Below, piece after piece: positions 2,459-22,215 of a stretch of DNA of 64,000 nucleotides (the first letter of the stretch is position 1; each line of letters opens with the position of its first letter). This DNA is from Candidatus Omnitrophota bacterium (GTDB lineage: Bacteria > Omnitrophota > Gorgyraeia > Gorgyraeales > Gorgyraeaceae). Location: assembly GCA_043814965.1 (NCBI GenBank), contig JBDRJN010000006.1, positions 71,838-135,837 of the forward strand. Reading direction: 5' to 3'. Made by a program: the position numbers and the translations under genes. Under the pieces are notes generated by a model. The model ran no database searches, was not told the origin of the DNA, and saw only the letters and a program-made list of their open reading frames with translations.

Positions 2459-3691
2459 ATGTCCATAGTAAAGAACAGAGCTTTTGAAAGCCACTTGCTA
2501 TCTGACCACGAGAGTAAGAACTTCTCTATGCTGGAACTTATAAGAAAAAATGGCCCTATCACAAGAGCTGATATATCAAAGATAACAGACCTTAATATTG
2601 TAACAGTATCAAACTATATAAATAATTTTATTAAAGCAGGGCTTGTAGTAGAAGGAGGCATGGAGGCATCTTCTGGCGGCAGGAAACCTACATTGGTAAA
2701 GCTTAATGAACGGCATGGTTTTGCCATAGGCATAGACCTGGGTAATATGGAGCTAGACCCCTCCAGGATGATAGGATTGGTCACTGATCTAGCTGGGCAT
2801 GTGGTGATAAGGGTGGAAAAGACCAGGCCAAAAGACACTATGAGCAATGTAATAGAAAAATCCATTGATTTCATAGAAGAACTTATAAGCAGAAAAGAGG
2901 TAGACCGTGAAAAGGTTAAGGGCGTAGGTATCTGTATCGGGGGTGTTATAGATGAGAATATGGGCACAGTGAGAGATTCGACCAAGGATGGAGTGAGGAC
3001 AAGCTATATGGCTATAAAAAATGCCATAGAACAAAAATATGGCATGCCGTCTTTTTTGGGTAATGATGCTACATTTGCAGCATTTGGAGAAAAGATGCAT
3101 GCATTGCCCTTGGATACGGAGAATGTGATATATATGTACTCTGATGTAGGTACAGGCATTATTATAAAAGGCAATATTTATTGCGGTGCCAGCGGTTCTG
3201 CGGGAGAGATGAGCATAAATTGCCCTAGGCCGGATGATTATATCAATATAGCAAAAAATCTGTCGTTCCTGCTTCCTATGGGAGTCGATCTTGGCTTAAT
3301 AAGGCAGGTCAAGAGGCTTATAGAAGAAGGTGTTGAATCAAAGATAAAAGATGACAAAGGTAAAATAGATAATATTACATTAGAGAATATCATAGAGGCA
3401 GCAAAGTCAGGAGATAGCTTTGCTATAGAATTACTTGAGGATGCAGCAGTCAATCTAGGCCTTAGGGTAGCGTATCTAGTCAATTTGTTCAACCCTGAGA
3501 TAGTGATAATAGGCGGGGGTGTCGAAGCTGCCGGCAGTTTATTCCTGGAGCCTCTAAGAAAGACAGTTCGCAGATGGGCTTTCGAAGAACCCGCTAATGT
3601 AGTAAAGATAATACCAGCCCAGCTGGGGAAGGATGCTGTTTCTCTGGGTGGAGCAAGTGTTGTAATAAGGAACCTCTTTATAAGCGCATAA
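2459..3691 (+). CDS. ROK-family protein (NagC/XylR-type repressor with N-terminal wHTH plus sugar-kinase fold)
   Basis: N-terminal HTH (LELIRKNGPITRADISKITDLNIVTVSNYINNFIKAGLV) is followed by a ROK/glucokinase-like region with Gly-rich ATPase motifs (GIGIDLG, GVGICIGGVID). AGGAGG lies 6 nt upstream of the ATG. Confidence 0.75.
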   Translation: MSIVKNRAFESHLLSDHESKNFSMLELIRKNGPITRADISKITDLNIVTVSNYINNFIKAGLVVEGGMEASSGGRKPTLVKLNERHGFAIGIDLGNMELDPSRMIGLVTDLAGHVVIRVEKTRPKDTMSNVIEKSIDFIEELISRKEVDREKVKGVGICIGGVIDENMGTVRDSTKDGVRTSYMAIKNAIEQKYGMPSFLGNDATFAAFGEKMHALPLDTENVIYMYSDVGTGIIIKGNIYCGASGSAGEMSINCPRPDDYINIAKNLSFLLPMGVDLGLIRQVKRLIEEGVESKIKDDKGKIDNITLENIIEAAKSGDSFAIELLEDAAVNLGLRVAYLVNLFNPEIVIIGGGVEAAGSLFLEPLRKTVRRWAFEEPANVVKIIPAQLGKDAVSLGGASVVIRNLFISA

Positions 3692-3711: not shown

Positions 3712-3851
3712 GGCTTACGTTCGCTCACTTTGTTCGCTCCAATTGATCAACAGTTATATCCCTCGCAACACAGTATCAAATAATGGCCGCTCGGGATTAA
3801 TTCGCACATTGGCTTACGTTCGCTCACTTTGTTCGCTCCGTAAGCCAAGTG
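3712..3851. repeat. Two 29-bp direct repeats (GGCTTACGTTCGCTCACTTTGTTCGCTCC at 3712-3740 and 3811-3839); the second is embedded in a 10-bp inverted repeat (TTGGCTTACG / CGTAAGCCAA)
   Basis: Read directly from the sequence. The internal heptamer TTCGCTC is itself duplicated within each unit. A downstream tandem ACCGTATCAA x2 lies at 3859-3880. Confidence 0.6.
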
Positions 3852-3897: not shown

Positions 3898-3926
3898 TTG
3901 ACAAATAATTAGTAGTATGATATACT
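3898..3926 (+). promoter_or_regulatory. Sigma70-type promoter TTGACA-N17-TATACT upstream of the efflux operon
   Basis: -35 TTGACA at 3898-3903, a 17-nt spacer and -10 TATACT at 3921-3926. AGGAG follows about 6 nt before the ATG at 3949. Confidence 0.5.
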
Positions 3927-3948
3927 TCTCCATTAACTAGGAGAAAGT

Positions 3949-5829
3949 ATGCAAAAAAAGCGTATCATACTACTAAACCTTATTGGAATTGCTGTTTTTA
4001 TAGTAGCATTTCAAACCGTATCATTTCCTTATAATACTGATAATACCACAGAATCTTTAACCAAATATATAGTAAATATATCAAGGGATATATCTAACTC
4101 TATCTTTCCTTATCCAAAATCTTCCATAGTCACTGATTCTAAAGGCAGCCTAAAACTAAAGATGCTTATCTCTCCATGGGGAGAGCTCAAAGATGTATAT
4201 ATTTATGAGTCATCCGGAAGCGATGAACTTGATAGTATATGCCTGCAGGCTGTATGGTCCAATGATAGGTATGAGCCTTTCCCAGAAGCCCTTGGCGAGG
4301 AAGAGAGGTGGATAGATATCCCTGTATTATTTGAGAATATCAAAGAAACACCAGAGTATATTTTGGATGATACGGATATGGATGTTCATTTATCAAGCAG
4401 AGACCTATTGGGTATTGATAGGGATGTGCTGCCGGAAGGGAATGCGTCAGGCAGTACCCATGTCTTAGGAATAGAAGAAGCTATAGATATTGCGATGGAA
4501 AATCATACACCTGCCGAGATCGCAAGAGATGAGATAAGCCTTTCAAACCTTAAGATGAAGGAGGCCAAGAGAGCGCTTTTCCCTACAGGAAGCCTTAATA
4601 TGCTTGAGACAATAGGAAGGACTACGGAGCGTACCCAGGATTTTACTGATAGGGAATATAAATTAAAATTTGAATACCCGCTCTTTTATGGCTGGAGATT
4701 GCGATACGCAGTTGAAAAGGCAAGGGCCAATATAAAGACATCAGAAGAGAATTATGATAAGGTATTGCAGGATCTCAGGGGAGAAGTAGAGGCGGCTTTT
4801 TATTCATACGTAGCAAAAAAGTCAAATCTAAAGCTGCAGCGTAACCTTCTAGAGAGCGTAAAAGGTGTCTTTGATATTGCAAAAAAAAGGCATGCGCTAG
4901 GGCTTAGCACCAACTCAGAGTTCTTACAGGTACAATCGCAGATGGAGCAGGTCAATTACCAAGTCGTCTCCAGCGAGAACGATCTTTCTATAGCAAAGCT
5001 TACTTTACAGCAGGCTGTAAACCTGGAGGATACTAAAGAACTTGAAAAATTGATAGATATGGATGTTGATATAGAGGATCTCAAGCCTTTGTCTATAGAC
5101 GCTCCCCTTGAAAAATGCCTGGAGCTGGCATTTAAATACAGGCCTGATCTAAAGGCAAAAAAGCACAATATCGAGTTTAATGAATACGAGGATAGGATCC
5201 AGAAAAGCAAGGACCAGATAAAAGTAGACCTTACTGGTTCTTATGGCCGTTCAGGGGGTGCTTTTCAATCCGAAAGCTTGCTCCTTTCAAATGATTGGTA
5301 TCTGGGATTAAAGGCATCCAAACCTCTTGGCGTAAATACACTCTCAACTGCTATGACAAAAGAGGAGACTACGGAAAAACACGGACAGACCTCCAGGACA
5401 GAATCAATGAGCCGTTCATTAGAATTGGGATTGATCGACAATCTGCAGTCCTTTTCCGAGAAGAAGACAAGCGAGATAGCCCTTAAGAAGGCAAAGGATG
5501 AATTAGACCAGATGAAAGATGCTATCATCAAAGAAATAAACGAGGCCTATTTAAGTTATAAAAAAGAGATAATGCAAGTAGCCTCCAGTTTAAATAAGAT
5601 CAATTATAAGGAAGAAGAACTTAATATCGCAAAGGCTCGTTTAGACCTGAACGAGATACCGTATTCACAGCTTATACAGGCATATATGACTCTTAACGAT
5701 GAAAAGACTTATTATGTCGAGGCAATAGGAAGTCTTTATCAGTCATTGTCCACTTTAAATAAGGCTACGGGGTATACATTATTTTTGGACAGTGAGAACT
5801 TTATGTTAGCAGATTCGAGGAAGAAATGA
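3949..5829 (+). CDS. TolC-family outer-membrane efflux protein with an N-terminal extension of about 170 aa that resembles a TonB C-terminal domain
   Basis: The C-terminal 450 aa show the typical OEP/TolC coiled-coil repeat pattern (EENYDKVLQDLRGEVEAAFY...LQRNLLESVKGVFDIAKKRHALGLSTNSEFLQVQSQ). The N-terminal region (SSIVTDSKGSLKLKMLISPWGELKDVYIYESSGSDELDSICLQAVWSNDRYEPFP) matches the TonB_C pattern (..G.V.V.F.I...G.V..V.V..SSG...LD.AA..AV....F.P). Confidence 0.75.
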   Translation: MQKKRIILLNLIGIAVFIVAFQTVSFPYNTDNTTESLTKYIVNISRDISNSIFPYPKSSIVTDSKGSLKLKMLISPWGELKDVYIYESSGSDELDSICLQAVWSNDRYEPFPEALGEEERWIDIPVLFENIKETPEYILDDTDMDVHLSSRDLLGIDRDVLPEGNASGSTHVLGIEEAIDIAMENHTPAEIARDEISLSNLKMKEAKRALFPTGSLNMLETIGRTTERTQDFTDREYKLKFEYPLFYGWRLRYAVEKARANIKTSEENYDKVLQDLRGEVEAAFYSYVAKKSNLKLQRNLLESVKGVFDIAKKRHALGLSTNSEFLQVQSQMEQVNYQVVSSENDLSIAKLTLQQAVNLEDTKELEKLIDMDVDIEDLKPLSIDAPLEKCLELAFKYRPDLKAKKHNIEFNEYEDRIQKSKDQIKVDLTGSYGRSGGAFQSESLLLSNDWYLGLKASKPLGVNTLSTAMTKEETTEKHGQTSRTESMSRSLELGLIDNLQSFSEKKTSEIALKKAKDELDQMKDAIIKEINEAYLSYKKEIMQVASSLNKINYKEEELNIAKARLDLNEIPYSQLIQAYMTLNDEKTYYVEAIGSLYQSLSTLNKATGYTLFLDSENFMLADSRKK

Positions 5830-7112
5830 TCAATACTAAAAAAATACTCATTGGTTTTATAGCGCTATGGGTATTGGGGTTTTTGATTATCTGGGGGATC
5901 ACACTTTCCAAAAGAGGTTCCGCAAAGAAAAAACCTGTCTCTTCATTTGATATGGAGCAGCTCGAGAAAGAAGATATGAGTATAGAGGGAGAAGAGGGGC
6001 TTGAACTAGCTACCGATGAAGTTGGTATGATGGATGGACTTATTGATTCTCAGGGTATGCCTTCTCAATCCCCGGACATGCAGCAGCAAGGCACCCAGGG
6101 GACAGAGGCCTTGCCTGTCAGATGTTATAAGATCAGCCTTATGGATTTTAAAGATGACCTGCCTGTAATGGGTATTGTAAAGGGTTCTTCAGAGATAGAG
6201 CTTAAGTTTGAGATAAACGGCGTGATCGAATCTATAAATTTCAGAGAAGGGGATGTTGTCTATAAAGACGACAAGATAGCTAACCTTGACAAAAAAGACG
6301 CAAAACTTAAGGTAGAATATTCAAAGAGTAAACTCGATTCTTCTAAGGCGCAGGCCCTGGCAGCTAAGAAAAAATTAGAGATACATAAGGATCTTTATGA
6401 TATAGGAGCTATTATAAAGGCAAAGCTGGAGGAAGTTGAACTTGAGGCAAGGGCAGCAGAGCTCCAGGCAAAGTCTGCAGAAGTGGAACTCAAGTCAGCG
6501 GAAGAAGAGTTAAATAAAACAGATATGTATGCGCCGAGAGATGGGGTGCTTGGTTCGCGTGATGCCGAGGTGGGAGAATTTGTAACTCCTCAAAATAAGA
6601 TAGGGACTCTTTATGATACAGCCCAGGTATTCGTAGAATTGGGTATAGTGGAAAGAGACATAGACAAGATCGCATTGGCCCAGGATGTTGTAGTGACTGT
6701 TGATACTTATCCTGACATGGTATTTACAGGTACTGTTGACAATGTGTTTCCTATAGTTGAAGGCAAATCAAGGACCCTTACTGTCAGGGTAGGAATAGAT
6801 AACGAGGATAACCTGCTTTTACCTGGCATGTTCGCAAGGGCAAAGATCACTATAGCTCAGTTCGAAGATGCGATAGTGATACCTAGCTTTGCATTGGATA
6901 AGACAGACGAAGGATACAAGGTCTTTGTAGTATCTCAAAGCAACATAGCGTCTCCCAGGGATATAGAAGTAGAATATGTGACTACGGATTATACAGTGAT
7001 CCAGTCTGGTTTGAGCGAGGGAGAAGTAGTTGTTATAGATGCGCCTCAGGAATTAAAAGATGGCGTGCCTGTAAATATCATAGATCTGCAGGAAAGCAGC
7101 GCTAAAGAGTAA
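5826..7112 (+). CDS. RND efflux membrane-fusion (periplasmic adaptor) protein, HlyD/AcrA family
   Basis: Signal anchor, a biotin-lipoyl-like motif (INFREGDVVYKDDKIANLD), a coiled-coil, and beta-barrel/MPD motifs (DMYAPRDGVLG...VTPQNKIGTLYD...VVTVDTYPDMVFTGTVDNVFP). The start overlaps the tolC stop (ATGA), implying translational coupling. Confidence 0.8.
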   Translation: MINTKKILIGFIALWVLGFLIIWGITLSKRGSAKKKPVSSFDMEQLEKEDMSIEGEEGLELATDEVGMMDGLIDSQGMPSQSPDMQQQGTQGTEALPVRCYKISLMDFKDDLPVMGIVKGSSEIELKFEINGVIESINFREGDVVYKDDKIANLDKKDAKLKVEYSKSKLDSSKAQALAAKKKLEIHKDLYDIGAIIKAKLEEVELEARAAELQAKSAEVELKSAEEELNKTDMYAPRDGVLGSRDAEVGEFVTPQNKIGTLYDTAQVFVELGIVERDIDKIALAQDVVVTVDTYPDMVFTGTVDNVFPIVEGKSRTLTVRVGIDNEDNLLLPGMFARAKITIAQFEDAIVIPSFALDKTDEGYKVFVVSQSNIASPRDIEVEYVTTDYTVIQSGLSEGEVVVIDAPQELKDGVPVNIIDLQESSAKE

Positions 7113-7232: not shown

Positions 7233-10200
7233 ATGAGCCTTCCACATTTTTCAGTAGATAAACCCGTAACAACATCCATGATATTCGTAGGCATACTGCT
7301 TTTGGGAGTCATATCCCTGACGCGCCTGCCTCAAGAGCTTTTTCCATCCGTAAATTTTCCTCAACTTACAATAGTCACGACTTATGAGAATGCTGCCCCT
7401 GAAGAAGTCGAGACATTGATAACAAAGATCATAGAAGAGACAGTAGGGACCGTAGGGAGCATCAAGAGGGTAAGCTCTATATCGAAAGAGGGAGTTTCTA
7501 TAGTCACTGCTGAGTTCAATTGGGGCACCAATATGGATTTTGCCTCATTAGGCGTAAGGGAAAAGATAGACCTTGTAAAGGAACGCCTTCCCCTGGGATC
7601 AGCTGACCCGATAGTGATGAAGTTCAATCCATTTGAACTCCCGGTTGTTACCCTTAGTGTTACAGGAAAACATTCTCCAGCTGAGCTTCTGCGCCTTTCA
7701 AGAAAATTCATCAAGGATGAATTGGAAAAAGTCGAAGGAGTAGCTTCTTGCAGTGTGAACGGAGGCCTTGAAAGAGAGATACTTGTCTCAGTGGACGCGG
7801 GAAGGCTTTACGCGTCAAAAATAGCTATTACAAAGATCGTTGATGGCCTGCGTTCGTCAAACCTCAATTATCCTGCAGGCACAATAGAAGAACATTTTTA
7901 TGAGTATCTTATCAGGACTATGGGAGAGTTCAAGCTGATACCAGAGATACAAGAGACGATTATAGGCAAGGACGAGGAAGAAGACAAAGGGTACATGAAC
8001 CCGAATCGGGAGGAGGCAAAGACCGATATCAGGGCATCGCGTTTGATATTACTTAAAGATGTAGCAGAGATAAAAGACACATTTCAGGAAAAGACAAACA
8101 TCTCCAGGTACAATGGCAAAGAAAATATCTCAGTTTCAGTGCAAAAACAAGCAAGCGCGAATACATTGCGTGTCGCTGATAAGGTAAGGGATAAATTAGA
8201 AGATATCAAAAGAGATCTCCCGAAGGGCATGGATGTCACGATAATATACGACCAGTCGATATTTATCAAAAAATCAATAAGCGGAGTGATGGACGCGGCT
8301 GTGCAGGGAGGCATGCTTGCATTTATAGTGCTTTTTGTGTTCTTAAGGAATGTCAAGGCGTCTTTCGTAGTAGCGTTTTCAATGCCTGTAAGTATCATGG
8401 TGGCGTTTACGCTTATGTATTTTAACGGTATCACATTGAATATGCTTTCCCTTGGAGGCCTCGCGCTCGGTATAGGTATGCTTGTCGATAATGCTATAGT
8501 CGTCATAGAGAATATCTATGTCCATTTTAATAGGACCAGGGATATGAAGGAATCCAGTAAGTTCGGGGCGAGCGAGATGTCAGCGAACCTGTTTTCATCC
8601 ACGCTTACTACAGTAGCGGTATTTTTACCTATGGTGTTTGTCGTCGGAGTAGCCGGGCAGTTGTTCAAAGAACTCGCGTTTACTGTTATATTCTCACTGT
8701 TAGCGTCTTTATTGGTGGCATTGTCATTGATACCGCGCTTGGCAGCAATGGGGGGCAGTAATCCAAAAAAAGTAAAGGCTATATCCACGGCGAATTTTAC
8801 ATTTGGACTTGGACCTATATATAATAAATTTATACCTATAGTATTAAGGTTTAGATGGTTATTTTTACTTTTCGTGATGGGAATTTTTGTATTGAGTATA
8901 GGGCTATTTCCATTCATAGATAAAGAATTCATGCCAAAGGTAGACCAAAGAGAATTTATCATGAGAGTGAACATGCCGAACGGGACAAGGCTTAATATAA
9001 CAGACAGGGTAGTGAAAAGAGTAGAAAATATACTCCTCGAGACCAAAGAATTAGAAGGTATAGCTGTTACTATAGGTTCCAGTAAAAGTAAGGGTGATTC
9101 ACAGAGCCTGGAGATGATGAGCTCTTCGCAGTCACAGATCATAGTGGCATTAAAAAAGGACAGAAAACTGGCCCATACTTCTAAGGTCATAGAAAGGCTG
9201 AAAGACCAATTTGACAAGTTGAACCTGGAAGGCGCTGAAATAGAATATATACTCCAGGAGAGCTTTTTTAAATCAGCGATGCAGGGATCAGCCCCGATCG
9301 TAATAGAGATAAAAGGTAAAAACCTTGAAAATATAGAGGAGGTATCTAAATACATACAGGAAAACATTGCGAACATAGGAGGTATCTATGGCGTGCGTAC
9401 AAGCCTTTCCGAGCCTTCTCCTGAGACAAAAGTAAATGTCATACAGGATAGGGCTGCGCTTTACAATCTTTCTACAGGAGTCATCTCCCAGGCAGCTCAT
9501 GCTGCTATAAAGGGAGCCGTGGCTACTAAATTTAAGGAAGAGGGCAAGGAGATAGATATAAGGGTAAGGCTTAGGAATGAGGACCGTTCCAAGCTTTCTA
9601 ACCTCAGAAATATTCTTATACATTCCCCGCTTGATATAGAAGTGCCCCTGTCGGAAGTAGCATATATCACGCAAGGCGTCGGGCCCAGCGAGATAAAACG
9701 CCTTGACCAGCAGAGGGTTATCCTCGTGACAGCTAATCTGTCCGAACGGCCTCTTAATAAAGTAATAAAAGATGTGGAGGTATTGATAAAAGAGACAGAA
9801 GAGACGATGGCTGAAAAGATAAATGCTTCTAAATCCGCAGAAAAGGATATTACAATAACGCTGTCTGGAGAAAGCCAGCAAATGGGGGAGAGCTTTAGTT
9901 CTTTGGCATTTGCTTTGATGCTTTCAATACTCCTGGTATACATGATAATGGCTTCGCAGTTTGAATCATTATGGCAGCCTTTTATAATAATGTTCACTAT
10001 GCCTTTATCCCTTACAGGGGTTTTCGCGATTTTATTTATTACGCGTACTCCTATAAGCGTCGTTGTCATGCTCGGAGTCATAATCCTGGGAGGCATTGTC
10101 GTTAATAATGGTATTATTTTAATAGATTGCATCAATGCGCTTGTAAAAGAAGGCAAAACTATAATGGAGGCTGCTATAGAATCCGGCAGCGCAAGGCTCA

Positions 10201-10829
10201 GGCCTATAATAATGACCACTATGACTACAGTATTAGGGCTTTTTCCTCTGGCGCTTGGGATATCAGAAGGGTCAGAGCTTCAGAGCCCTATGGCTATAAC
10301 GGTGATGGGAGGGCTTACTATATCGACTATACTTACACTTTTTGTCATACCCTGCATATATACACTTGTAGCAGACTTTATCTCATCAAGGGTCCTTAAA
10401 GTACAGCCAATAGCTGTGAGCGCAGTGGAAGAACCCGCAGTCTTAAGACCTGGTGAGATCAGGGCTATCATGATACCTCCGCCTAACTGGTTGGCAGCCA
10501 AACCCCCCAGAGAAGAAAAGATAGACGAGCCTATAGAGGAAAGAGAAGGACCTATGCAGGAAGAAGGGCCTGTTATCGGAGATGCAAAAGTCCCAAAAGA
10601 AATTATTGTAAAAGAAGGCTCTTTCCAATTGAATAGAAGGCAGAAAAAACTTCTGGAGCACCTGAAGACAGTGGATCATATTACACGTAAAGAATACGCG
10701 GTCCTTTTTAATATATCGATAGCAACTGCAGCGAGGGACCTGAAGGAATTGCTGGAGAATGGGTCTTTGACCGCGAGCGGCCCTCTTGGGCCTGGGCGCT
10801 GGTATGAATTAAAAATGGGTAACGGGTAA
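7233..10829 (+). CDS. RND (HAE1/AcrB-family) inner-membrane efflux permease with a fused C-terminal winged-HTH-like domain (1198 aa)
   Basis: Canonical AcrB architecture: 12 TM segments and two large periplasmic loops, with conserved motifs (GGLALGIGMLVDNAIVVIENI, RLRPIIMTTMTTVLGLFPLAL). A C-terminal K/E/P-rich linker of about 60 aa is followed by LNRRQKKLLEHLKTVDHITRKEYAVLFNISIATAARDLKELLENGSLTASGPLGPGRWYEL. This matches the wHTH found at the C-terminus of Fic and divergent-AAA 'RecG C-terminal' proteins. Confidence 0.85.
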   Translation: MSLPHFSVDKPVTTSMIFVGILLLGVISLTRLPQELFPSVNFPQLTIVTTYENAAPEEVETLITKIIEETVGTVGSIKRVSSISKEGVSIVTAEFNWGTNMDFASLGVREKIDLVKERLPLGSADPIVMKFNPFELPVVTLSVTGKHSPAELLRLSRKFIKDELEKVEGVASCSVNGGLEREILVSVDAGRLYASKIAITKIVDGLRSSNLNYPAGTIEEHFYEYLIRTMGEFKLIPEIQETIIGKDEEEDKGYMNPNREEAKTDIRASRLILLKDVAEIKDTFQEKTNISRYNGKENISVSVQKQASANTLRVADKVRDKLEDIKRDLPKGMDVTIIYDQSIFIKKSISGVMDAAVQGGMLAFIVLFVFLRNVKASFVVAFSMPVSIMVAFTLMYFNGITLNMLSLGGLALGIGMLVDNAIVVIENIYVHFNRTRDMKESSKFGASEMSANLFSSTLTTVAVFLPMVFVVGVAGQLFKELAFTVIFSLLASLLVALSLIPRLAAMGGSNPKKVKAISTANFTFGLGPIYNKFIPIVLRFRWLFLLFVMGIFVLSIGLFPFIDKEFMPKVDQREFIMRVNMPNGTRLNITDRVVKRVENILLETKELEGIAVTIGSSKSKGDSQSLEMMSSSQSQIIVALKKDRKLAHTSKVIERLKDQFDKLNLEGAEIEYILQESFFKSAMQGSAPIVIEIKGKNLENIEEVSKYIQENIANIGGIYGVRTSLSEPSPETKVNVIQDRAALYNLSTGVISQAAHAAIKGAVATKFKEEGKEIDIRVRLRNEDRSKLSNLRNILIHSPLDIEVPLSEVAYITQGVGPSEIKRLDQQRVILVTANLSERPLNKVIKDVEVLIKETEETMAEKINASKSAEKDITITLSGESQQMGESFSSLAFALMLSILLVYMIMASQFESLWQPFIIMFTMPLSLTGVFAILFITRTPISVVVMLGVIILGGIVVNNGIILIDCINALVKEGKTIMEAAIESGSARLRPIIMTTMTTVLGLFPLALGISEGSELQSPMAITVMGGLTISTILTLFVIPCIYTLVADFISSRVLKVQPIAVSAVEEPAVLRPGEIRAIMIPPPNWLAAKPPREEKIDEPIEEREGPMQEEGPVIGDAKVPKEIIVKEGSFQLNRRQKKLLEHLKTVDHITRKEYAVLFNISIATAARDLKELLENGSLTASGPLGPGRWYELKMGNG

Positions 10830-10838
10830 CCCGAACTT

Positions 10839-13800
10839 ATGAATCTATCAGAATTTTCAGTTAGAAGGCCAATAACTATTTTAATGCTTTTTGTTGCAGT
10901 AGTTCTCATAGGGGTAGTTTCTCTATCAAGGCTTCCTGTTGAACTTATGCCCAATATCTCCTATGGAGATATGAGTATTATTATAGCTGTCAGGGGCGGT
11001 ATGCCGCCAGAAGAAGTCGAGACGCTTGTTACAAAGCCGGTTGAAGAGGCTGTAAGTACTGTTAATTATCTGCAGAATATATACTCTACTTCCAAGGCCG
11101 GAGAATCAAGGGTATCTCTGGAGTTCGAACCTGGCACTGATATGAATTTTGCAGCCCTTGAAGTAAGAGAAAAATTTTCAAAGGTAAGAGATAAGCTCCC
11201 CAAAGAGATACAAAAACCTATAATAGCTCAATACAAGGAATCCGACAGGCCTGTCTATCTCTTGGCAGTCATGGGGGAGGGGTATACTCCTGAGGCTATG
11301 CGAAAGATCGTGGATGAGCAGTTCAAAGAAAGCCTCTTGCGTATAGAAGGGGTCGCGAACGTAGAAGTATATGGAGGAAGAGAAAGAAAGATCCTGGTCG
11401 ATATAAGGAAGAACAAGCTAAAACAATATAATATACCCATAGATCTTGTTGTCAATGCGCTTGGATCTAATAACTTGAATCTATTGGCAGGGGACATAGA
11501 GCAGGATTACAATAAATATCTGGTAAGGATAATAGGCGAATTTAAATCCTTGGATTATATAAAAAATATCGGTATCAGCGCTTCTCCGGAAGGCCATATT
11601 ATAAAACTCGGTGAAGTCGCGGACGTAAAGGACTCTTTTTTAGAACCTACCAGTTATGCCAGGACGGATATAGAACCAGTGGTATCCGTAAGTATACAGA
11701 AAGAATCCACCGCTAACACTATAGATGTGGTAGCCAATATAGAAAAACAACTTGGCATATTAAAAAGAGGCATCGATAAAAAGATAGTCATAAAGACCAC
11801 TCTTAATCAAGCTGTTACCATACAAGAGGCAATAAAATCAGTCCAGACATCTCTTTTGTACGGCGCTATGTTGGCAATAATGGTGCTTTTATTGTTTTTA
11901 AGGGACCCGCGCATTACTTCTATCATAGGGGTCACTATCCCCATATCAGTCATGGCTACTTTTATATTGATGTATTTCAACAAGATCACGATCAATGTCA
12001 TGACGCTGAGCGGCCTTGCGCTCGGCATAGGTATGCTCGTGGATAATTCTATAGTAGTGCTTGATAATGTTGACAAAAAAAGGCAGGACGTGGATTTCTC
12101 CAAACAAAACTGGAAGGAAGTATATACTGACGCGGTCATAACAGGTTCTTCAGAAGTAGGGCTTGCGATACTTGCTTCTACCATTACGACAATAGTCGTG
12201 TTTTTGCCATTTATATTTGTCAATAAAGAGACACAGATGCTTTGGGGAGGGCTTGCCCTGACAGTGACATTTTCACTCCTTAGTTCATTGTTTGTGTCCT
12301 TGACTATAGTGCCTATGCTTTCTGATAAGATAAAACACCCGCCCAAAAAACCAAAGAAGCCCAAAAAGAGCTTTTTAAAAAGCAGCATTTTCTTAAAAAT
12401 ACCTGTGTATTATAGAAAGGCCCTGGAATTGGGATTAGTGTACAGATATTTTATGGTATTGGGCGCATTTATAGTGTTGCTCCTTATGCTGTTTTTGGGC
12501 GCAGGCATAGACAAGGAATTTATGGCAGGCTCTGAAGAGGGCAGGTTCACTATGTTTGTAGAGCTTGAGCCAGGCGCAAAACTCGACGTGACAGACGAGA
12601 TGGTCAAGGAGATGGAACAGCTTATTACCAAGATACCCGAGATAAAGACATTTAGCGCAAGGATCGAACCTTGGTCCAGCAAGATATATGTCAAGCTTGT
12701 GCCTTTAGCCCAGAGGGAGCGCTCGACAAAGGTTGTTATCGATTATATAAGAGCTGAGGCAAAGGCAATAGAGCAAAAATATAAAGGAGGTTTCATATAT
12801 TTTTCTGAGATAGAAGAGAAAGGTTTAAAGGAAATAGTGCTGGACTTATATGGTTATGAATATGAGCCTCTAAAGGAAACAGCTGTCTCTATCGCTACAA
12901 GGCTTGGGGCTGTCGAGGGATTTCAGGATATAAGGATGTCCAGGATAAGCGGCAGGCCTGAATGGGCGATAGAAGTTGACAGAGAAAAAGCAGCTATTTT
13001 TGGGCTTACTGTAAAAGATGTGGCGGATACTATCCACTCAGAGATGAGAGGGTTAAGGGCGACATTATTTCATACCGAGTCGAGAGAGATAGAGACAGTT
13101 TCTCGTTTGATAAAAGAAGACAGAGCGAGGTTAGATGACCTTAAAAAACTCCCTATTTTCGCGAAGAACGGAAACCCGATATTGCTGGAACAGGTAGCGA
13201 GCTTTACTCCGCAGATAGGTTCCAGCGAGATAGTAAGAAAAAACAAGATGAGAGTAGTGCATATAACTTCCATGATCACGAATATGTCACTTATCACAGC
13301 AGTTAGTAAGGTAAGAGAAGCCCTGAAGGACATGGAGTTCCCGACAGATTATTATTACAGGATAGGAGGGAGTTTTGAGAGGGACCAGAGGAATGAGAAA
13401 GAGTTGTGGGCTTTTCCGACCGGTGTATTATGGATAACTTTGTTTTTGGTCTATCTTGTCCTTGCCTCGCTTTTTGAATCTTATATCCAGCCTTTTATTA
13501 TCATGATATCTGTACCGCTCGCTATTATAGGAATAATACTTGCATTGAAGATATCCCATAAGCCTATCAGCAGGGGTGTAATAATAGGCGCTATAATGCT
13601 GGCAGGTATTGTCGTCAATAATGCGATCGTCCTCGTGGACAGGATAAATTTTTTACGTAAACAAAAAGGATCTACGGAAGAAGATGAGGCAGAGGATCTA
13701 TGGAATTCTCTTATTACTGCAGGAGAAGACCGATTAAGGCCGATAGCAATGACTACTGCTACTACTATATTGGGGCTTGTCCCAATGGCGCTTGATAAGA

Positions 13801-14018
13801 GTGAATCCGCAAATCTCTGGGCGCCGCTTGCGATCACTGTGATAGGGGGCATGACTTCTTCGACCTTGCTCACCTTGTTTGTAGTACCAGGTATATATCT
13901 TATATTCGAAGATGTGAAGAATATAGTACTTAAACCAAAAGAGTTAATATTATTTGTCCAAAATAAAATATATGGTATAATAAATAGAAAGACTACTTAT
14001 GATACAGATAGATTATAG
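10839..14018 (+). CDS. Second RND (AcrB-family) efflux permease, a tandem paralogue
   Basis: Same AcrB-like motif set (GLALGIGMLVDNSIVVLDNV, RLRPIAMTTATTILGLVPMAL) in 1059 aa. It contains a lysine-rich HPPKKPKKPKKSF tract in a periplasmic/linker region. Confidence 0.85.
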   Translation: MNLSEFSVRRPITILMLFVAVVLIGVVSLSRLPVELMPNISYGDMSIIIAVRGGMPPEEVETLVTKPVEEAVSTVNYLQNIYSTSKAGESRVSLEFEPGTDMNFAALEVREKFSKVRDKLPKEIQKPIIAQYKESDRPVYLLAVMGEGYTPEAMRKIVDEQFKESLLRIEGVANVEVYGGRERKILVDIRKNKLKQYNIPIDLVVNALGSNNLNLLAGDIEQDYNKYLVRIIGEFKSLDYIKNIGISASPEGHIIKLGEVADVKDSFLEPTSYARTDIEPVVSVSIQKESTANTIDVVANIEKQLGILKRGIDKKIVIKTTLNQAVTIQEAIKSVQTSLLYGAMLAIMVLLLFLRDPRITSIIGVTIPISVMATFILMYFNKITINVMTLSGLALGIGMLVDNSIVVLDNVDKKRQDVDFSKQNWKEVYTDAVITGSSEVGLAILASTITTIVVFLPFIFVNKETQMLWGGLALTVTFSLLSSLFVSLTIVPMLSDKIKHPPKKPKKPKKSFLKSSIFLKIPVYYRKALELGLVYRYFMVLGAFIVLLLMLFLGAGIDKEFMAGSEEGRFTMFVELEPGAKLDVTDEMVKEMEQLITKIPEIKTFSARIEPWSSKIYVKLVPLAQRERSTKVVIDYIRAEAKAIEQKYKGGFIYFSEIEEKGLKEIVLDLYGYEYEPLKETAVSIATRLGAVEGFQDIRMSRISGRPEWAIEVDREKAAIFGLTVKDVADTIHSEMRGLRATLFHTESREIETVSRLIKEDRARLDDLKKLPIFAKNGNPILLEQVASFTPQIGSSEIVRKNKMRVVHITSMITNMSLITAVSKVREALKDMEFPTDYYYRIGGSFERDQRNEKELWAFPTGVLWITLFLVYLVLASLFESYIQPFIIMISVPLAIIGIILALKISHKPISRGVIIGAIMLAGIVVNNAIVLVDRINFLRKQKGSTEEDEAEDLWNSLITAGEDRLRPIAMTTATTILGLVPMALDKSESANLWAPLAITVIGGMTSSTLLTLFVVPGIYLIFEDVKNIVLKPKELILFVQNKIYGIINRKTTYDTDRL

Positions 14019-14042: not shown

Positions 14043-15788
14043 ATGGATAAAAGCGTTCGTACGATCCTGACTATTCTTATAGTACTTGTGATCCTGAGCA
14101 GTTTTAGTACAGCATGGTTTTTTCTTGCCAAAGAGAGAATTTACACGGATTATCTCAGCCTGGAGAATCTTTTTAAGACGAGTGTGGAGAGGCTTAATAG
14201 AAAGCTTACTGCTTCAAACAGGAATAATAAATCTCTAGCTGCAAAATTGGAGATGGTCTCAAGAGAACTTGAATCCTTGGAGAGAAAAAACAATTCCATG
14301 GCCAGCCAATACGATAGCTTATTAAGAGAAAAAGATGAGCTAAAGAGGGAAGTCGCAAGGGTTCAAAAAGGCAAATTTTTCCTGGATAAGAGAGTAAGGA
14401 GTATGGAATCAGATGAATTTATGGCAAGGCTATTAAAAGATAAGGCTTCGCTGGAAGTCGAGGTGAATGGCTTGAAAAATATGGCCGGGCCAAAGGATAT
14501 GGAGGTAGAGAAGCTCAGGGCACAGAATACTGATCTCGGGATGAAGATAGCCAGGCTTGAAAAAGAAGCGATTTTATTGGAGGGCAGGTTAAGGGATTCA
14601 GGAGAAGTCGCGGAGGCTTTAAGCAGGGACCTTTTAAAAGAAAAAGACAAGGCTAGTTCAAAGAATTTTGATATAGAAAATCTGATGAATGAAAACAGGT
14701 TATTGACGGCAAAGCTGGACCAGAATGAAAAGGTCTATGGAAAGGCCGGCAGGGCCATAGAAGAAAACGATGATCTAAGATTAAGGCTCGCAAAACTCAA
14801 AGAAGAGCTTGAGGATAAAGAAAGGGTCAGCGAACGCCTGTTGAGGTCTAAGGACGAGGAGCTAAAGAGGGTTTCAAAAGAACTTGATATCGTTGCCAGA
14901 GAGAAAGAAGATATCTCAATGACATTGTTTGCATTACAAAAAGACTTGAATACAAAAGATACAGAGATAGCTAAGTTGAATCGGTCGCTCTCAGATAAAT
15001 TCGATACTAAAAAAGAACTCAAAGAGACATCCGAGAGGATAAACAGCCTCCTGTCAGAACGAGAAGATATGAGGCTTAGGATGTATGCGCTGGAGAAAGA
15101 CCTGGAGACAAAGGACAAGGTAAAAAGCAGTTTATTGAAAGGCCAGGCCGCAGGTGTAAAGAATTTTGATAATATCATACAGGAAAATGAAAGTCTTAGG
15201 TCGCATATAGCAAAACTGGAAAAGGACCTTAAGGGCCAGGATAGGCTTAGAAAAAAACTGGTCAAGATGAAGGCGGAAGAGCTTGATGAGGTTTCGAGAA
15301 AATATAGCAGCCTCCTTAATGAGAGGGAAGATCTCAGGATAAAGCTCGTCAAGCTGGAAAAATATCTGAATTCCAAGAATATAGAGCTTGGCGGGTTGAG
15401 TTCTATGCTGGCAAGTAATACGGATCACAGCACACCTTATAGGGCAGAGGCATATCATACACTGAAAGAAGTCGATCTTCCTCCGATAGTATTACAGAGA
15501 GAAGGAGAGAGCAGCGCAACCAGTGGTATTACTGGTGCCAGGATAGCGTCGGGCTCTGAGAGCAGGGCAAGAGTAGTCACTATAAATAGAGAACATAAGT
15601 TTGTAGTCATAGATATAGGCCAGGAATACAATGTCGATGTAGGAGATAGATTCAGTGTTTATAGAGGGGATGATATAATAGGACTTGTAGAAGTGATACA
15701 AGCTAGAAAGAAGATAGCAGCTTGTGACATAAAAGATGAAAAGAGCGGATTCACCATAGAATCCGGAGATATCGTCAAAAAGAGATAG
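14043..15788 (+). CDS. Membrane-anchored long coiled-coil protein with internal repeats of about 45 aa and a C-terminal small beta-barrel (OB/PRC-like) domain
   Basis: An N-terminal TM helix (ILTILIVLVILSSFSTAWFFLA) is followed by about 450 aa of heptad-like E/K/L-rich sequence with repeated LEKDL.TKD / LSEREDMRLR...L.KLEK units. The C-terminal segment is VVTINREHKFVVIDIGQEYNVDVGDRFSVYRGDDIIGLVEVIQARKKIAACDI. Confidence 0.5.
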   Translation: MDKSVRTILTILIVLVILSSFSTAWFFLAKERIYTDYLSLENLFKTSVERLNRKLTASNRNNKSLAAKLEMVSRELESLERKNNSMASQYDSLLREKDELKREVARVQKGKFFLDKRVRSMESDEFMARLLKDKASLEVEVNGLKNMAGPKDMEVEKLRAQNTDLGMKIARLEKEAILLEGRLRDSGEVAEALSRDLLKEKDKASSKNFDIENLMNENRLLTAKLDQNEKVYGKAGRAIEENDDLRLRLAKLKEELEDKERVSERLLRSKDEELKRVSKELDIVAREKEDISMTLFALQKDLNTKDTEIAKLNRSLSDKFDTKKELKETSERINSLLSEREDMRLRMYALEKDLETKDKVKSSLLKGQAAGVKNFDNIIQENESLRSHIAKLEKDLKGQDRLRKKLVKMKAEELDEVSRKYSSLLNEREDLRIKLVKLEKYLNSKNIELGGLSSMLASNTDHSTPYRAEAYHTLKEVDLPPIVLQREGESSATSGITGARIASGSESRARVVTINREHKFVVIDIGQEYNVDVGDRFSVYRGDDIIGLVEVIQARKKIAACDIKDEKSGFTIESGDIVKKR

Positions 15789-22071: not shown

Positions 22072-22100
22072 TTATATAACTAATTGATATTAATAAAGTT

Positions 22101-22132
22101 ACCATAGGGGACCCTTAAGGGTCCCCTATGGT
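22101..22132. terminator. Perfect 32-bp GC-rich palindrome (ACCATAGGGGACCCTTAAGGGTCCCCTATGGT), about 30 nt after the folE stop; member of a recurrent hairpin family
   Basis: Read directly from the sequence. Related copies at 24467-24492 and 28059-28084 also follow + strand stop codons. Confidence 0.5.
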
Positions 22133-22153
22133 ATAACCTATGTAAAATTTTTA

Positions 22154-22182: not shown

Positions 22183-22215
22183 ATATCTATAATTAAATAT
22201 TCATAAAAACAGCAT

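What the first reader, a model, noticed from the sequence alone, without database searches (positions are those of the whole stretch)
3949..5829. TolC-family outer-membrane channel with an N-terminal TonB-C-like domain
The OEP/TolC portion occupies only the C-terminal 450 aa or so. Ahead of it, after a signal-anchor-like segment, comes a block of about 85 aa (SSIVTDSKGSLKLKMLISPWGELKDVYIYESSGSDELDSICLQAVWSNDRYEPFP). This matches the conserved pattern of the TonB C-terminal domain: beta-strand G.V.V.F.I, SSG..LD.AA..AV, and a closing F.P. A TonB_C-like module joined to a TolC-like exit duct is a non-canonical architecture. It could tether the channel to peptidoglycan or to a partner, or gate it.
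Basis: partly seen in the sequence, partly recalled or inferred. Interest (0 to 1): 0.6.

Follow-up and report, generated by a model that had tools for sequence, protein, structure and literature searches.

The report
TolC exit duct carrying TonB-type domain
An efflux-pump outer-membrane channel from an uncultured Omnitrophota bacterium carries, on a flexible tether, the "grabbing" end-domain of the energy-coupling protein TonB; the same add-on sits on this phylum's pilus secretins, so it is probably a general docking or anchoring device for outer-membrane channels, though no function has been tested.

Summary
ORF 3949..5829 (626 aa) has four parts: a signal peptide, a ~100-aa TonB/TolA C-terminal-domain fold (res 30-129), a variable disordered linker (res 130-174) and a TolC-family channel (res 175-612). 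The domain call rests on Pfam TonB_C (34.3 bits; cutoff 24.6), PDB sequence hits to TonB CTDs, and a confident AlphaFold model whose top ~20 PDB fold matches are all TonB/HasB/FusB CTDs or TolA-III.

The fusion is not an artefact. More than 115 protein clusters (51-61% identical) and about 35 GTDB species genomes carry it, and every named one is Omnitrophota. All five operons examined share the layout ROK regulator, TonB_C-TolC, MFP, RND(+HTH tail), RND.

Distant relatives (24-28% identical) carry 2, 3 or 6 TonB_C copies. An Elusimicrobia relative of the same TolC subfamily has none. Omnitrophota Tad secretins carry the same module at their C-terminus.

It is not a TonB. It has no conserved membrane-anchor motif and no proline-rich rod, ExbBD is not nearby, and the domain sits at the wrong end.

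The most likely role is a passive, ExbBD-independent docking or anchoring module. This is inferred, not shown. I found no published description. Novelty: new variant of a known kind. Interest: moderate.

The parts
2459..3691 (+). ROK-family regulator gene (HTH + ROK), conserved directly upstream of the fusion gene
   Evidence: Pfam ROK 2.1e-36 and HTH_24. A ROK gene lies upstream, directly or with one MFS gene between (L001), in L001, L003, L005.
3712..3839 (.). Two perfect 29-nt direct repeats (3712-3740 and 3811-3839) in the intergenic region; possibly an operator or a repeat element, function unknown
   Evidence: the repeat finder
3898..3926 (+). Promoter-like site TTGACA-17-TATACT with TG extension, the best match in the 14.5 kb scanned
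   Evidence: a consensus match only
3939..3943 (+). Shine-Dalgarno AGGAG, 5 nt before the ATG
   Evidence: sequence read
3949..5829 (+). TonB_C-TolC fusion gene, 626 aa
3949..4023 (+). Residues 1-25: Sec signal peptide (KKR n-region, 16-aa hydrophobic core, Pro22, T-V-S at 23-25). Cleavage after residue 25 is predicted, not shown.
   Evidence: TVS or TIS at residues 23-25 in 94 of 115 homologues; no conserved His and no lipobox; model helix 2-20, then a disordered stretch at 21-31
4036..4335 (+). Residues 30-129: TonB/TolA C-terminal-domain fold (helix 30-51, helix 58-62, strands 67-74 and 79-87, helix 92-104, strand 120-127)
   Evidence: Pfam TonB_C 34.3-37.1 bits, above GA 24.6; PDB TonB CTD sequence hits; pLDDT about 90; Foldseek hits to TonB/HasB/TolA-III only; mean column identity 0.78 across 115 homologues
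4336..4470 (+). Residues 130-174: disordered linker, variable in length and sequence
   Evidence: pLDDT about 34; length 19-73 aa (median 31), column identity 0.15, 5% Pro, rich in S/E/G/K/D; alignment
4471..5784 (+). Residues 175-612: TolC-family outer-membrane factor body (two OEP repeats), including a polar beta-hairpin insertion at about residues 461-498
   Evidence: Pfam OEP 6e-43; Foldseek to TolC/ST50/OprM/CusC/CmeC with TMt 0.64-0.81 at 12-16% identity; secondary structure
5785..5829 (+). Residues 613-626: conserved but low-confidence C-terminal tail (family consensus LDDENFxLANxK), then the stop codon, which overlaps the MFP start (ATGA)
5826..7112 (+). Membrane-fusion (periplasmic adaptor) protein, translationally coupled to the fusion gene
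   Evidence: Pfam HlyD_D23 5.5e-30; 4-nt start/stop overlap; syntenic in L001, L003, L005, L007
7233..10829 (+). RND permease 1 (1198 aa) with a C-terminal DeoR-type HTH tail
   Evidence: ACR_tran 7e-234; HTH_DeoR at residues 1136-1179, 22.5 bits above GA 21; the tail is conserved in syntenic genes
10839..14018 (+). RND permease 2 (1059 aa); the tandem pair suggests a heteromeric RND
   Evidence: ACR_tran 4e-225; synteny
14043..15788 (+). Conserved downstream gene: TM segment, long coiled coil and a small C-terminal beta-domain. Whether it belongs to the pump is uncertain.
   Evidence: No Pfam family above its cutoff; homologues sit at the same position in L001, L003, L005

Best explanation
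The gene encodes one polypeptide with four parts. A Sec signal peptide comes first. A folded domain of about 100 aa follows, with the fold of the C-terminal domain of TonB/TolA. A floppy linker of 19-73 residues comes next. The last part is a TolC-family exit duct that serves a tripartite RND pump made of an MFP and two different RND permeases.

After export and trimerisation, three TonB-type domains would hang in the periplasm from the outside of the TolC helical barrel at about equatorial height. That placement is inferred from the order of secondary-structure elements and from the known TolC architecture.

The domain cannot transduce energy the way TonB does. It has no conserved membrane-anchor motif, it has no rigid proline-rich rod, and no ExbB/ExbD genes lie nearby.

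The most likely role is a passive docking module. It would use the established binding mode of this fold, which is pairing its last beta-strand with an extended strand of a partner (as in TonB with the Ton box, or TolA with TolB). The partner would be another envelope component close to the outer membrane, and the effect would be to position, stabilise or help assemble the channel.

The same module is attached to the C-terminus of this phylum's Tad secretins. In Pseudomonas, that is the position where the secretin binds its pilotin. This points to a generic device for anchoring or assembling outer-membrane channels in Omnitrophota, not to something specific to efflux.

Shown: the architecture, the fold, the conservation, the operon and the phylum-wide recurrence. 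Inferred: signal-peptide cleavage, topology, the binding mode and any partner.
For: Architecture and fold:
- Pfam TonB_C scores above its gathering cutoff, and two OEP repeats are present.
- The N-domain profile hits TonB CTDs 9ddz, 9dc4, 5lw8 and 6sly in PDB sequences.
- AlphaFold gives pLDDT about 90 for the module and about 34 for the linker.
- Foldseek's top ~20 matches are all TonB/HasB/FusB CTDs or TolA-III.
- The body matches all solved TolC-family channels.

The fusion is real and under selection:
- 120 clusters at 51-60% identity almost all carry PF03544 plus PF02321.
- Module column identity is 0.78 against 0.15 for the linker.
- About 36 loci occur in GTDB Omnitrophota genomes.
- Synteny with ROK, MFP, RND-HTH and RND is conserved.

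The fusion is old and modular:
- P0178 (2 copies) is 24% identical and P0194 (3 copies) is 28% identical, aligned end to end.
- P0281 has 6 copies.
- P0178 sits in the same operon type.
- The Elusimicrobia relative in L046 has the same TolC subtype without the module.

Generic channel add-on:
- All 120 listed relatives of a CpaC-type secretin carry TonB_C at the C-terminus, and the named ones are Omnitrophota.
- One such secretin lies in a Tad locus.
- The RcpA C-terminus is the pilotin-binding site in P. aeruginosa (PMC10499894).

Not an energy transducer:
- No conserved His in the hydrophobic segment (37 of 115); a conserved P-T-V/I-S cleavage-like motif; linker 5% Pro.
- No ExbB/ExbD/TBDT Pfam hit in any window ORF scanned or in the related loci.

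The charge of related copies ranges from -9 to +10. That fits backbone-mediated strand pairing better than charge-driven binding.
Against: - No partner was identified. The MFP N-terminal linkers are variable and show no conserved Ton-box-like motif. The conserved C-terminal tail of the one-copy family is absent from the multi-copy relatives.
- AlphaFold gave no confident docking of the module. pTM is 0.62 and the linker pLDDT is about 34. I could not inspect coordinates or PAE.
- The series of 1, 2, 3 and 6 tandem copies looks more like avidity for a polymer such as peptidoglycan than like binding to a single protein partner.
- The YP motif typical of TonB CTDs is not conserved in the one-copy family; the consensus there is K-P-D. 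The binding surface may therefore have diverged.
- NCBIfam tonB_Cterm is below its cutoff.
- Whether Omnitrophota genomes encode ExbBD, TonB or TBDTs elsewhere was not tested.
Confidence: 0.5

Rival explanations
1. Direct peptidoglycan anchor. The TonB-type module binds the cell wall and pins the outer-membrane channel (and, in parallel, the Tad secretin) to the sacculus. It would play the role that AMIN, LysM, SLH or OmpA-like domains play for other outer-membrane machines.
For: - Tandem arrays of 2, 3 and 6 copies on TolC and 1-2 copies on secretins resemble the multivalent repeats of known wall-binding modules.
- The organism has peptidoglycan and a diderm envelope: MurJ, a Mur ligase, LysM-YkuD, LptE and BamD.
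- The linker (19-73 aa) is long enough to reach the wall from the equatorial belt.
- From my own knowledge, not checked here: the E. coli TonB C-terminal region has been reported to associate with peptidoglycan (Kaserer et al., J Bacteriol 2008).
Against: - The one-copy family's module is acidic (median pI 4.5, net charge -6; -9 in the window protein).
- Related copies range from -9 to +10, so they share no electrostatic signature for an anionic polymer.
- No recognised peptidoglycan-binding Pfam family matches the module.
- Every solved complex among the fold matches has a protein or peptide as ligand.
Confidence: 0.25
2. Regulatory or gating element. The tethered module binds the periplasmic tip of its own TolC or the MFP hairpins, and so controls pump engagement or channel opening.
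For: - It is tethered near the channel.
- The gene is translationally coupled to the MFP gene.
- The operon contains its own regulators, ROK and the RND-HTH tail.
Against: - The module also occurs on Tad secretins, which have no MFP.
- Copy number varies from 1 to 6.
- Linker length and sequence are unconstrained.
- No intramolecular docking was predicted with confidence.
- The shortest linkers (19 aa) would struggle to reach the periplasmic tip from the equatorial belt (inference).
Confidence: 0.08
3. Biogenesis aid. The module acts only during assembly, as a built-in pilotin or chaperone handle that engages the Bam or Lol machinery or an outer-membrane lipoprotein by strand pairing. It has no role in the mature channel.
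For: - It occupies the positions used elsewhere for the lipid anchor (N-terminus of OprM-type OMFs; palmitoylated OprM entry 4y1k appears) and for pilotin binding (the RcpA C-terminus; PMC10499894).
- Strand pairing is the known binding mode of this fold (PDB complexes).
Against: - No assembly factor is encoded in the conserved operon.
- This rival overlaps the main explanation, and sequence alone cannot separate the two.
- Six tandem copies seem excessive for a transient handle.
Confidence: 0.1
4. A true TonB-like energy transducer. The N-terminal hydrophobic segment is an uncleaved inner-membrane anchor coupled to ExbBD, so the protein bridges both membranes and transmits force to or from the channel.
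For: - It has an N-terminal hydrophobic helix followed by a TonB_C domain.
- NCBI and JGI pipelines label some members 'TonB family protein'.
Against: - The domain lies about 10 residues after the hydrophobic segment, with no periplasm-spanning rod. The linker comes after the domain and is only 5% Pro.
- There is no conserved SHLS-type His.
- A conserved Pro-Thr-Val/Ile-Ser cleavage-like motif is present, and the 6-copy relative has a textbook A-D-A signal-peptidase site.
- No ExbB/ExbD appears in the window or the related loci.
- An outer-membrane barrel assembled by Bam is not expected to stay anchored in the inner membrane (established knowledge).
Confidence: 0.03
5. Artefact: a mis-called start, a read-through of two genes, or a chimeric assembly.
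For: The source is a metagenome-assembled genome.
Against: - It is a continuous ORF with a Shine-Dalgarno sequence and a promoter-like site at the right distance.
- The same fusion occurs in more than 115 independent clusters from NCBI, JGI, ENA and Logan assemblies, including single-cell genomes.
- The linker varies but stays in frame in all of them.
Confidence: 0.01

Closest known systems
TolC / OprM / CusC outer-membrane factors (Pfam OEP PF02321; solved examples 1ek9, 1wp1, 3pik, 4mt4)
   Same: - Two OEP repeats.
- A predicted alpha-barrel plus beta-barrel protomer that superposes on all solved family members (TMt 0.64-0.81).
- Encoded with an MFP and RND permeases.
   Different: - Only 12-16% identical to solved members; the best sequence hit is OprM at E 1.4e-4.
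- Carries an N-terminal TonB-type domain plus linker, about 150 aa, that no solved member has.
- Has an extra polar beta-hairpin between strand S5 and helix H7.
- No lipobox, so it is TolC-like and not NodT/OprM-like at the N-terminus.
- Below the NCBIfam TolC and NodT subfamily cutoffs.
TonB, HasB and FusB C-terminal domains (PF03544; 2gsk, 2grx, 5lw8, 2m2k, 7zc8, 9dc4)
   Same: - The same fold and sequence family.
- The SSG-x-LD helix motif and the final W/V-x-V-P-I-x-F strand are conserved.
   Different: - Sits at the N-terminus of an outer-membrane protein, not at the C-terminus of an inner-membrane protein.
- No TM anchor motif, no Pro-rich rod, no nearby ExbBD.
- The YP motif is not conserved in the one-copy family.
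- Acidic.
TolA domain III (PF06519/PF13103; 1lr0, 3qdr, 6s3w)
   Same: - A fold match that includes the long N-terminal helix (109 aligned columns to 1lr0).
- TonB_2 scores just above its cutoff on the isolated N-terminus.
- The known ligand mode is strand addition (the TolB peptide complex 6s3w appears).
   Different: - No TolA domains I or II.
- No tolQRB-pal context.
- Fused to an outer-membrane channel.
Accessory factors and anchoring modules of outer-membrane channels: YbjP lipoprotein on TolC (9v52, 9tg4), pilotin TadD on RcpA (PMC10499894), the lipid anchor of OprM (4y1k); AMIN domains of PilQ (from my own knowledge)
   Same: A peripheral element, located at the periplasmic side close to the outer membrane, that positions or stabilises a channel. 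The fusion positions here (N-terminus of an OMF, C-terminus of a Tad secretin) are the positions those elements use.
   Different: - Here the element is a covalently attached TonB-type domain, not a separate lipoprotein, a lipid or an AMIN domain.
- Its ligand is unknown.
- The analogy is positional and has not been demonstrated.
MdtABC-type heteromeric RND pumps (from my own knowledge)
   Same: One MFP gene followed by two different RND permease genes in tandem.
   Different: - The exit duct is encoded in the operon and carries the TonB-type module.
- The first RND has a DNA-binding tail.
- Heteromer formation was not tested.

Membership tests
TolC-family outer-membrane factor (OMF, Pfam OEP) | Two tandem OEP repeats | tested here: met
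   PF02321, 2 stretches, 147 bits against cutoff 22
TolC-family outer-membrane factor (OMF, Pfam OEP) | TolC-like protomer fold: long helical hairpins plus beta-strands contributed to a shared barrel | tested here: met
   AlphaFold model with pLDDT 85-96 over the body. Foldseek hits to TolC, ST50, OprM, CusC, CmeC, MtrE and VceC at prob 1.0, TMt 0.64-0.81.
TolC-family outer-membrane factor (OMF, Pfam OEP) | Genetic association with a periplasmic adaptor and an inner-membrane transporter | tested here: met
   The MFP gene overlaps the stop codon and two RND genes follow. The arrangement is conserved in five loci.
TolC-family outer-membrane factor (OMF, Pfam OEP) | Homotrimer forming a single 12-stranded barrel | not testable with these tools
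   Only monomer prediction was available. An extra hairpin at residues 463-494 leaves the strand count open.
Curated subfamilies TIGR01844 (TolC type) and TIGR01845 (NodT lipoprotein type) | Score above the NCBIfam trusted cutoff; for NodT, also an N-terminal lipobox Cys | tested here: not met
   89.6 bits against 225, and 43.6 bits against 210. No conserved Cys in the first 30 residues (13 of 115). It is therefore a divergent OMF outside both curated subfamilies.
TonB/TolA C-terminal domain (structural domain family, PF03544/PF13103) | Profile match above the curated cutoff | tested here: met
   PF03544 scores 34.3-37.1 bits against 24.6; PF13103 scores 22.3 against 22 on residues 1-170. NCBIfam TIGR01352 scores 22-25 against 27.1, which is not met.
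TonB/TolA C-terminal domain (structural domain family, PF03544/PF13103) | The (alpha)-beta-beta-alpha-beta fold | tested here: met
   Models. Foldseek PDB hits are TonB, HasB, FusB and TolA-III only, down to rank 20.
TonB energy transducer (the protein, not the domain) | N-terminal inner-membrane anchor with the conserved SHLS-type His motif that couples to ExbB/ExbD | tested here: not met
   His occurs in the aligned hydrophobic segment in only 37 of 115 sequences and at no fixed position. A conserved P-T-V/I-S cleavage-like motif is present instead.
TonB energy transducer (the protein, not the domain) | Proline-rich periplasm-spanning spacer between the anchor and the C-terminal domain | tested here: not met
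   The domain starts about 5-10 residues after the signal segment. The only long linker follows the domain and is 5% Pro.
TonB energy transducer (the protein, not the domain) | Association with ExbB/ExbD and TonB-dependent transporters | tested here: inconclusive
   None appears among the 64-kb window ORFs scanned or in six related loci. Whole genomes could not be searched.
Peptidoglycan-binding modules (LysM, OmpA-like, AMIN, SLH, SPOR) | Profile match to a recognised wall-binding family | tested here: not met
   No such Pfam hit on residues 1-170, even at E up to 10.
Peptidoglycan-binding modules (LysM, OmpA-like, AMIN, SLH, SPOR) | Binding to sacculi | not testable with these tools
   Needs biochemistry.

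The most novel reading that the evidence does not exclude
Omnitrophota have turned the TonB/TolA end-domain into a motor-independent, outer-membrane-side 'reverse TonB'. The domain is covalently attached to outer-membrane channels (TolC-type ducts in 1-6 copies, Tad secretins in 1-2 copies). It grabs extended strands of periplasmic or inner-membrane partners, or the wall, to build and hold trans-envelope machines. This would make it a phylum-wide envelope-organising system, replacing pilotins, lipid anchors and AMIN/LysM-type anchors, and a new functional class for this fold.
Probability: 0.3. Interest if true: 0.7.

Novelty: new variant of a known kind. Interest (0 to 1): 0.52.

Why it matters
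TolC-family ducts are usually treated as bare channels whose only periplasmic contacts are the adaptor tips. Accessory factors such as YbjP have been seen on TolC only recently. The TonB/TolA C-terminal domain is usually treated as the business end of a proton-motive-force-driven transducer.

Here that domain has no motor and is fused to the outer-membrane side of two unrelated channel types across a whole phylum of ultra-small, largely uncultured bacteria. If it is an anchoring or docking device, that would have three consequences:
- It would add a new role to a textbook fold.
- It would show how a deep-branching diderm lineage fixes its envelope-spanning machines.
- It would provide a simple, testable model, namely a tethered domain with a natural copy-number series of 1, 2, 3 and 6.

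It also matters for annotation. Pipelines call these proteins 'TonB family protein', which would inflate counts of Ton systems in Omnitrophota.

Tried and rejected
1. Disulfide dock between the two conserved cysteines (C98 in the module, C390 in the TolC body). 97 sequences have both, 14 have only C390, 4 have only C98 and none lacks both, so there is no co-loss. Both positions align to conserved buried Ala residues of the parent families. Not supported, but not excluded without coordinates.

2. A Ton-box-like motif in the MFP N-terminal linker. The linkers are variable and share no strand motif.

3. The conserved C-terminal tail (LDDENFxLAN) as an intramolecular ligand. It is absent from the 2-, 3- and 6-copy relatives and from the Elusimicrobia homologue, so it is not a general ligand.

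4. Electrostatics as a clue to the ligand. The module is acidic in this family, but related copies range from -9 to +10, so this gives no consistent signal.

5. My recollection that Xanthomonas TonB-dependent receptors carry TonB_C N-terminal extensions. The paper I checked does not say so, and I dropped the idea.

6. Literature search for the fusion. Five searches found nothing on TonB_C fused to TolC or to a secretin. The 2025 review of TolA/TonB evolution does not mention such fusions.

7. Domain-domain contacts in the full-length model. The only available facts are that the linker has low confidence and pTM is 0.62.

8. Taxonomy of the 3-copy branch (P0194). Its relatives carry no organism names.

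9. Whole-genome presence of ExbBD, TonB or TBDTs in Omnitrophota. This could not be searched with these tools.
Full report
**1. What is there**

The + strand carries one uninterrupted ORF at 3949..5829 encoding 626 aa. The start codon is well supported:
- AGGAG lies 5 nt upstream of the ATG.
- The best sigma-70-like match in 14.5 kb (TTGACA-17-TATACT, with an extended -10 TG) lies at 3898-3926.
- Homologues begin at the same methionine.

Pfam finds two OEP (TolC-family) repeats from residue 176 onwards (E 6e-43). It finds TonB_C (PF03544) at residues 54-129, covering positions 4-78 of the 79-position profile. TonB_C scores 34.3 bits in the whole protein and 37.1 bits on residues 1-170 alone, against a gathering score of 24.6. 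TonB_2 just passes on the isolated N-terminus, at 22.3 against 22. NCBIfam's stricter tonB_Cterm model stays below its cutoff, at 22-25 against 27.1.

**2. The module is a folded TonB/TolA-type domain**

A profile of 22 N-terminal segments hits only TonB C-terminal domains and then TolA in PDB sequences: 9ddz and 9dc4 at about 1e-4, then 5lw8 and 6sly.

AlphaFold2 with a 115-sequence alignment gives the following:
- helix 30-51, a short helix 58-62, strands 67-74 and 79-87, helix 92-104 and strand 120-127, at pLDDT about 90;
- a stretch at 131-172 with pLDDT about 34;
- a confident TolC body.

The module modelled alone has pLDDT 84.7. Its top ~20 Foldseek matches in the PDB are all TonB, HasB or FusB C-terminal domains or TolA domain III. 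The longer alignments, to H. pylori TonB-CTD and P. aeruginosa TolA-III, include the leading helix. The domain is therefore about 100 aa long, residues 30-129.

The full-length model matches every solved TolC-family channel at TMt 0.64-0.81, but at only 12-16% identity. By sequence, the best solved relative is OprM at E 1.4e-4. Scores fall below the curated NCBIfam TolC and NodT cutoffs. The body is therefore a divergent outer-membrane factor.

**3. N-terminus and linker**

The first 25 residues have a KKR n-region and a 16-residue hydrophobic core. A conserved Pro at residue 22 is followed by T-V-S or T-I-S at residues 23-25 in 94 of 115 homologues. Neither a conserved histidine nor a lipobox is present.

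The 6-copy relative P0281 has a textbook A-D-A signal-peptidase site. I read the window protein's segment as a cleavable Sec signal peptide, not a signal anchor. This is inferred, not shown.

Among the 115 homologues the linker is 19-73 residues long (median 31). It is almost unconserved, with column identity 0.15 against 0.78 for the module. It is rich in S, E, G, K and D, with 5% Pro.

The TolC body begins with the short helix and half-length helix that in known TolC structures lead from the equatorial belt up to the first barrel strand (element order; TolC architecture from established knowledge). The three modules of a trimer should therefore hang outside the helical barrel at about mid-height.

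**4. It is a conserved family, not an accident**

The window protein is identical to an NCBI entry from a Candidatus Omnitrophota MAG. The next 119 clusters are 51-60% identical. Nearly all are pre-annotated with PF03544 plus PF02321, and every named one is Omnitrophota. The few without a Pfam TonB_C call still contain the module in the alignment.

A scan of one genome per GTDB species found 36 loci of this family in about 35 genomes. They are labelled Omnitrophota, or are auto-named 'Planctomycetia' or 'uncultured bacterium' MAGs. Two genomes hold two paralogues.

The neighbourhood is conserved in three divergent members:
- a ROK regulator upstream;
- the fusion gene;
- an MFP whose start overlaps the fusion's stop codon (ATGA);
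- an RND permease with a C-terminal DeoR-type HTH tail;
- a second RND permease;
- a TM + coiled-coil protein.

In a library of 1.84 billion representatives at 50% identity, the whole family collapses into one representative plus fragments.

**5. The fusion is part of a larger pattern**

The nearest non-family relatives of the module are not ordinary TonBs. They are listed below.
- **Other TolC fusions.** Copy numbers are two (P0178, Omnitrophota), three (P0194) and six (P0281, Omnitrophota). P0178 and P0194 align end to end with the window protein at 24% and 28% identity, through the TolC-proximal module, the linker and the whole body. P0178 sits in the same kind of operon, with a periplasmic WD40 propeller inserted. 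Eleven more clusters of the P0194 type carry TonB_C plus OEP.
- **CpaC/RcpA-type Tad secretins.** They carry one or two TonB_C domains at the C-terminus. All 120 listed relatives of one such protein have this architecture, and the named ones are all Omnitrophota. One lies in an RcpC, secretin, ParA/CpaF, pilin-like locus.
- **Proteins made of TonB_C repeats.** These include one from candidate division KSB1.

An Elusimicrobia homologue has the same TolC subtype, including the GSYGRSGGAF motif and the hairpin insertion. It runs straight from signal peptide to channel with no module. The module is therefore an add-on acquired by one TolC subfamily and, separately, by the Tad secretin in one phylum.

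**6. What it is not**

It is not a TonB in the functional sense. The domain follows the hydrophobic segment almost immediately, it has no conserved anchor motif and no proline-rich rod, and it lies at the N-terminus of an outer-membrane protein.

No ExbB, ExbD or TonB-dependent transporter domain was found in any window ORF scanned or in the related loci. Whole genomes could not be searched, so this point is only local.

The window does show a standard diderm envelope with peptidoglycan: LptE, BamD, MlaDEF, LolCE-type ABC, Lnt, MurJ and LysM-YkuD.

A 2026 survey of Omnitrophota genomes mentions stray 'TonB C-terminal domain' genes. It reports no canonical TBDR/Sus architecture in the loci it examined, and it does not describe these fusions.

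**7. Most likely mechanism**

Every solved complex of this fold among the matches binds a protein or peptide, typically by adding a strand to the last beta-strand: TonB with BtuB, FhuA, FoxA or TbpA; TolA with TolB, g3p or colicin; FusB with ferredoxin.

The equivalent strand here is among the best-conserved parts of the protein, with consensus LWIDVPIIF and invariant W121 and P125.

The two fusion positions are the ones other bacteria use for outer-membrane-proximal anchoring or assembly:
- the OMF N-terminus, which is lipidated in OprM-type ducts (4y1k);
- the Tad secretin C-terminus, which binds the pilotin TadD in P. aeruginosa and is essential for secretin assembly (PMC10499894).

TolC itself is now known to carry a peripheral lipoprotein, YbjP (9v52 and 9tg4).

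I therefore favour a passive, motor-independent docking module that fixes or helps assemble the channel by binding another envelope component. I put this at about 40-50% as stated.

The main rival is direct peptidoglycan anchoring, at about 25%. The 1-2-3-6 copy series looks like avidity for a polymer. Against it, the module is acidic in this family (median pI 4.5) and related copies range from -9 to +10 net charge. No wall-binding profile matches it either.

Less likely alternatives are gating, a purely biogenetic role, a true energised TonB and an artefact. They are set out under rival explanations.

I identified no partner. MFP linkers carry no conserved strand motif. The conserved C-tail is specific to the one-copy family. 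The two conserved cysteines do not behave as a disulfide pair.

**8. Novelty and score**

Both parts are textbook families, and automated pipelines already label these proteins 'TolC family' or 'TonB family'. However, five full-text searches and a recent review of TolA/TonB evolution turned up no description of a TonB_C domain fused to a TolC-type duct or to a secretin.

I rate it a new variant of a known kind. The architecture is real, conserved and phylum-wide, and it separates the TonB end-domain from its motor. The function remains inferred.

Interest is moderate, at about 0.5. A specialist would be surprised by the recurrence on two channel classes and by the copy-number series. The finding does not by itself resolve a long-standing question.

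Noticed in passing
window 7233-10829 (tail about 10380-10829; HTH at residues 1136-1179): The first RND permease has a C-terminal extension of about 150 aa ending in a DeoR-type winged-helix DNA-binding domain (PF08220, 22.5 bits, above cutoff 21). The same tail is present in the syntenic RND genes of L001, L003 and L005, and as HTH_11/HTH_24 in L007. A transporter fused to a transcription-factor domain suggests direct self-regulation. I did not look for literature on it.
   Followed up: partly
window 7233-10829 and 10839-14018: Two different full-length RND permease genes lie in tandem behind one MFP gene. The arrangement is conserved in all related operons, which suggests a heteromeric (MdtBC-like) RND trimer.
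   Followed up: partly
window about 5329-5442 (residues 461-498 of the fusion protein): The TolC body has a conserved, polar insertion of about 36 aa, predicted as a beta-hairpin (strands 463-474 and 484-494), between the last canonical barrel strand and helix H7. It is shared with the 2-, 3- and 6-copy relatives and with the Elusimicrobia homologue in L046. Its position (collar, plug or extra barrel strands) could not be judged without coordinates.
   Followed up: partly
window 14043-15788: A conserved gene lies downstream of the pump: an N-terminal TM segment, a long coiled coil and a small, well-conserved C-terminal beta-domain (...VVTINKEHNFVVIDLG..DGIDVG..F.VYR...). No Pfam family reaches its cutoff. 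The window copy has about 190 extra coiled-coil residues compared with the 392-394-aa homologues in L001, L003 and L005.
   Followed up: partly
window 3712-3740 and 3811-3839: A perfect 29-nt direct repeat (GGCTTACGTTCGCTCACTTTGTTCGCTCC), spaced 99 nt apart, lies in the intergenic region between the ROK regulator gene and the fusion gene. It may be an operator pair or a small repeat element.
   Followed up: no
L047 9001-10752; proteins P0125, P0129, P0130, P0134, P0297: Omnitrophota Tad-pilus secretins (T2SS-T3SS_pil_N + Secretin) carry one or two TonB_C domains at their C-terminus. All 120 listed relatives have this architecture. The example locus is RcpC, secretin, ParA/CpaF ATPase and small pilin-like genes.
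   Followed up: partly
proteins P0178 (717 aa), P0194 (796 aa), P0281 (1183 aa); locus L007 4568-6721: TolC-type ducts with 2, 3 and 6 tandem TonB_C domains. The copies furthest from TolC keep the canonical YP motif, while the TolC-proximal copy is more degenerate.
   Followed up: yes
L007 8094-9149: A signal-peptide-bearing WD40 beta-propeller (351 aa) is encoded between the MFP and RND genes of the 2-copy TonB_C-TolC operon. A periplasmic propeller next to a TolA/TonB-type domain recalls TolB, but no TolB-like N-terminal motif was evident.
   Followed up: no
window 144-2444: A 766-aa ORF with no Pfam match ends in ...MFYNRTF, an aromatic C-terminus typical of outer-membrane barrels. Syntenic 888-895-aa no-Pfam genes precede the ROK gene in L001 and L005. 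In the window the ORF lacks an obvious signal peptide, so its start may be mis-set.
   Followed up: no
window 22001-24439: This is the lowest-GC stretch of the window (0.334, against about 0.40 elsewhere). It contains a 709-aa ORF (22310-24439) with no Pfam match.
   Followed up: no
L015 + L032 (JAHIPS01) and L024 + L035 (JAUYDX01): Two Omnitrophota genomes each carry two paralogous copies of the one-copy TonB_C-TolC gene (53-57% identical to the window protein).
   Followed up: no
window 54779-58859: A McsA-like (UVR motif) gene, a McsB-like gene (ATP:guanido phosphotransferase) and a ClpC-type AAA+ gene lie in a row. This protein-arginine-kinase quality-control module is best known from Firmicutes.
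   Followed up: no
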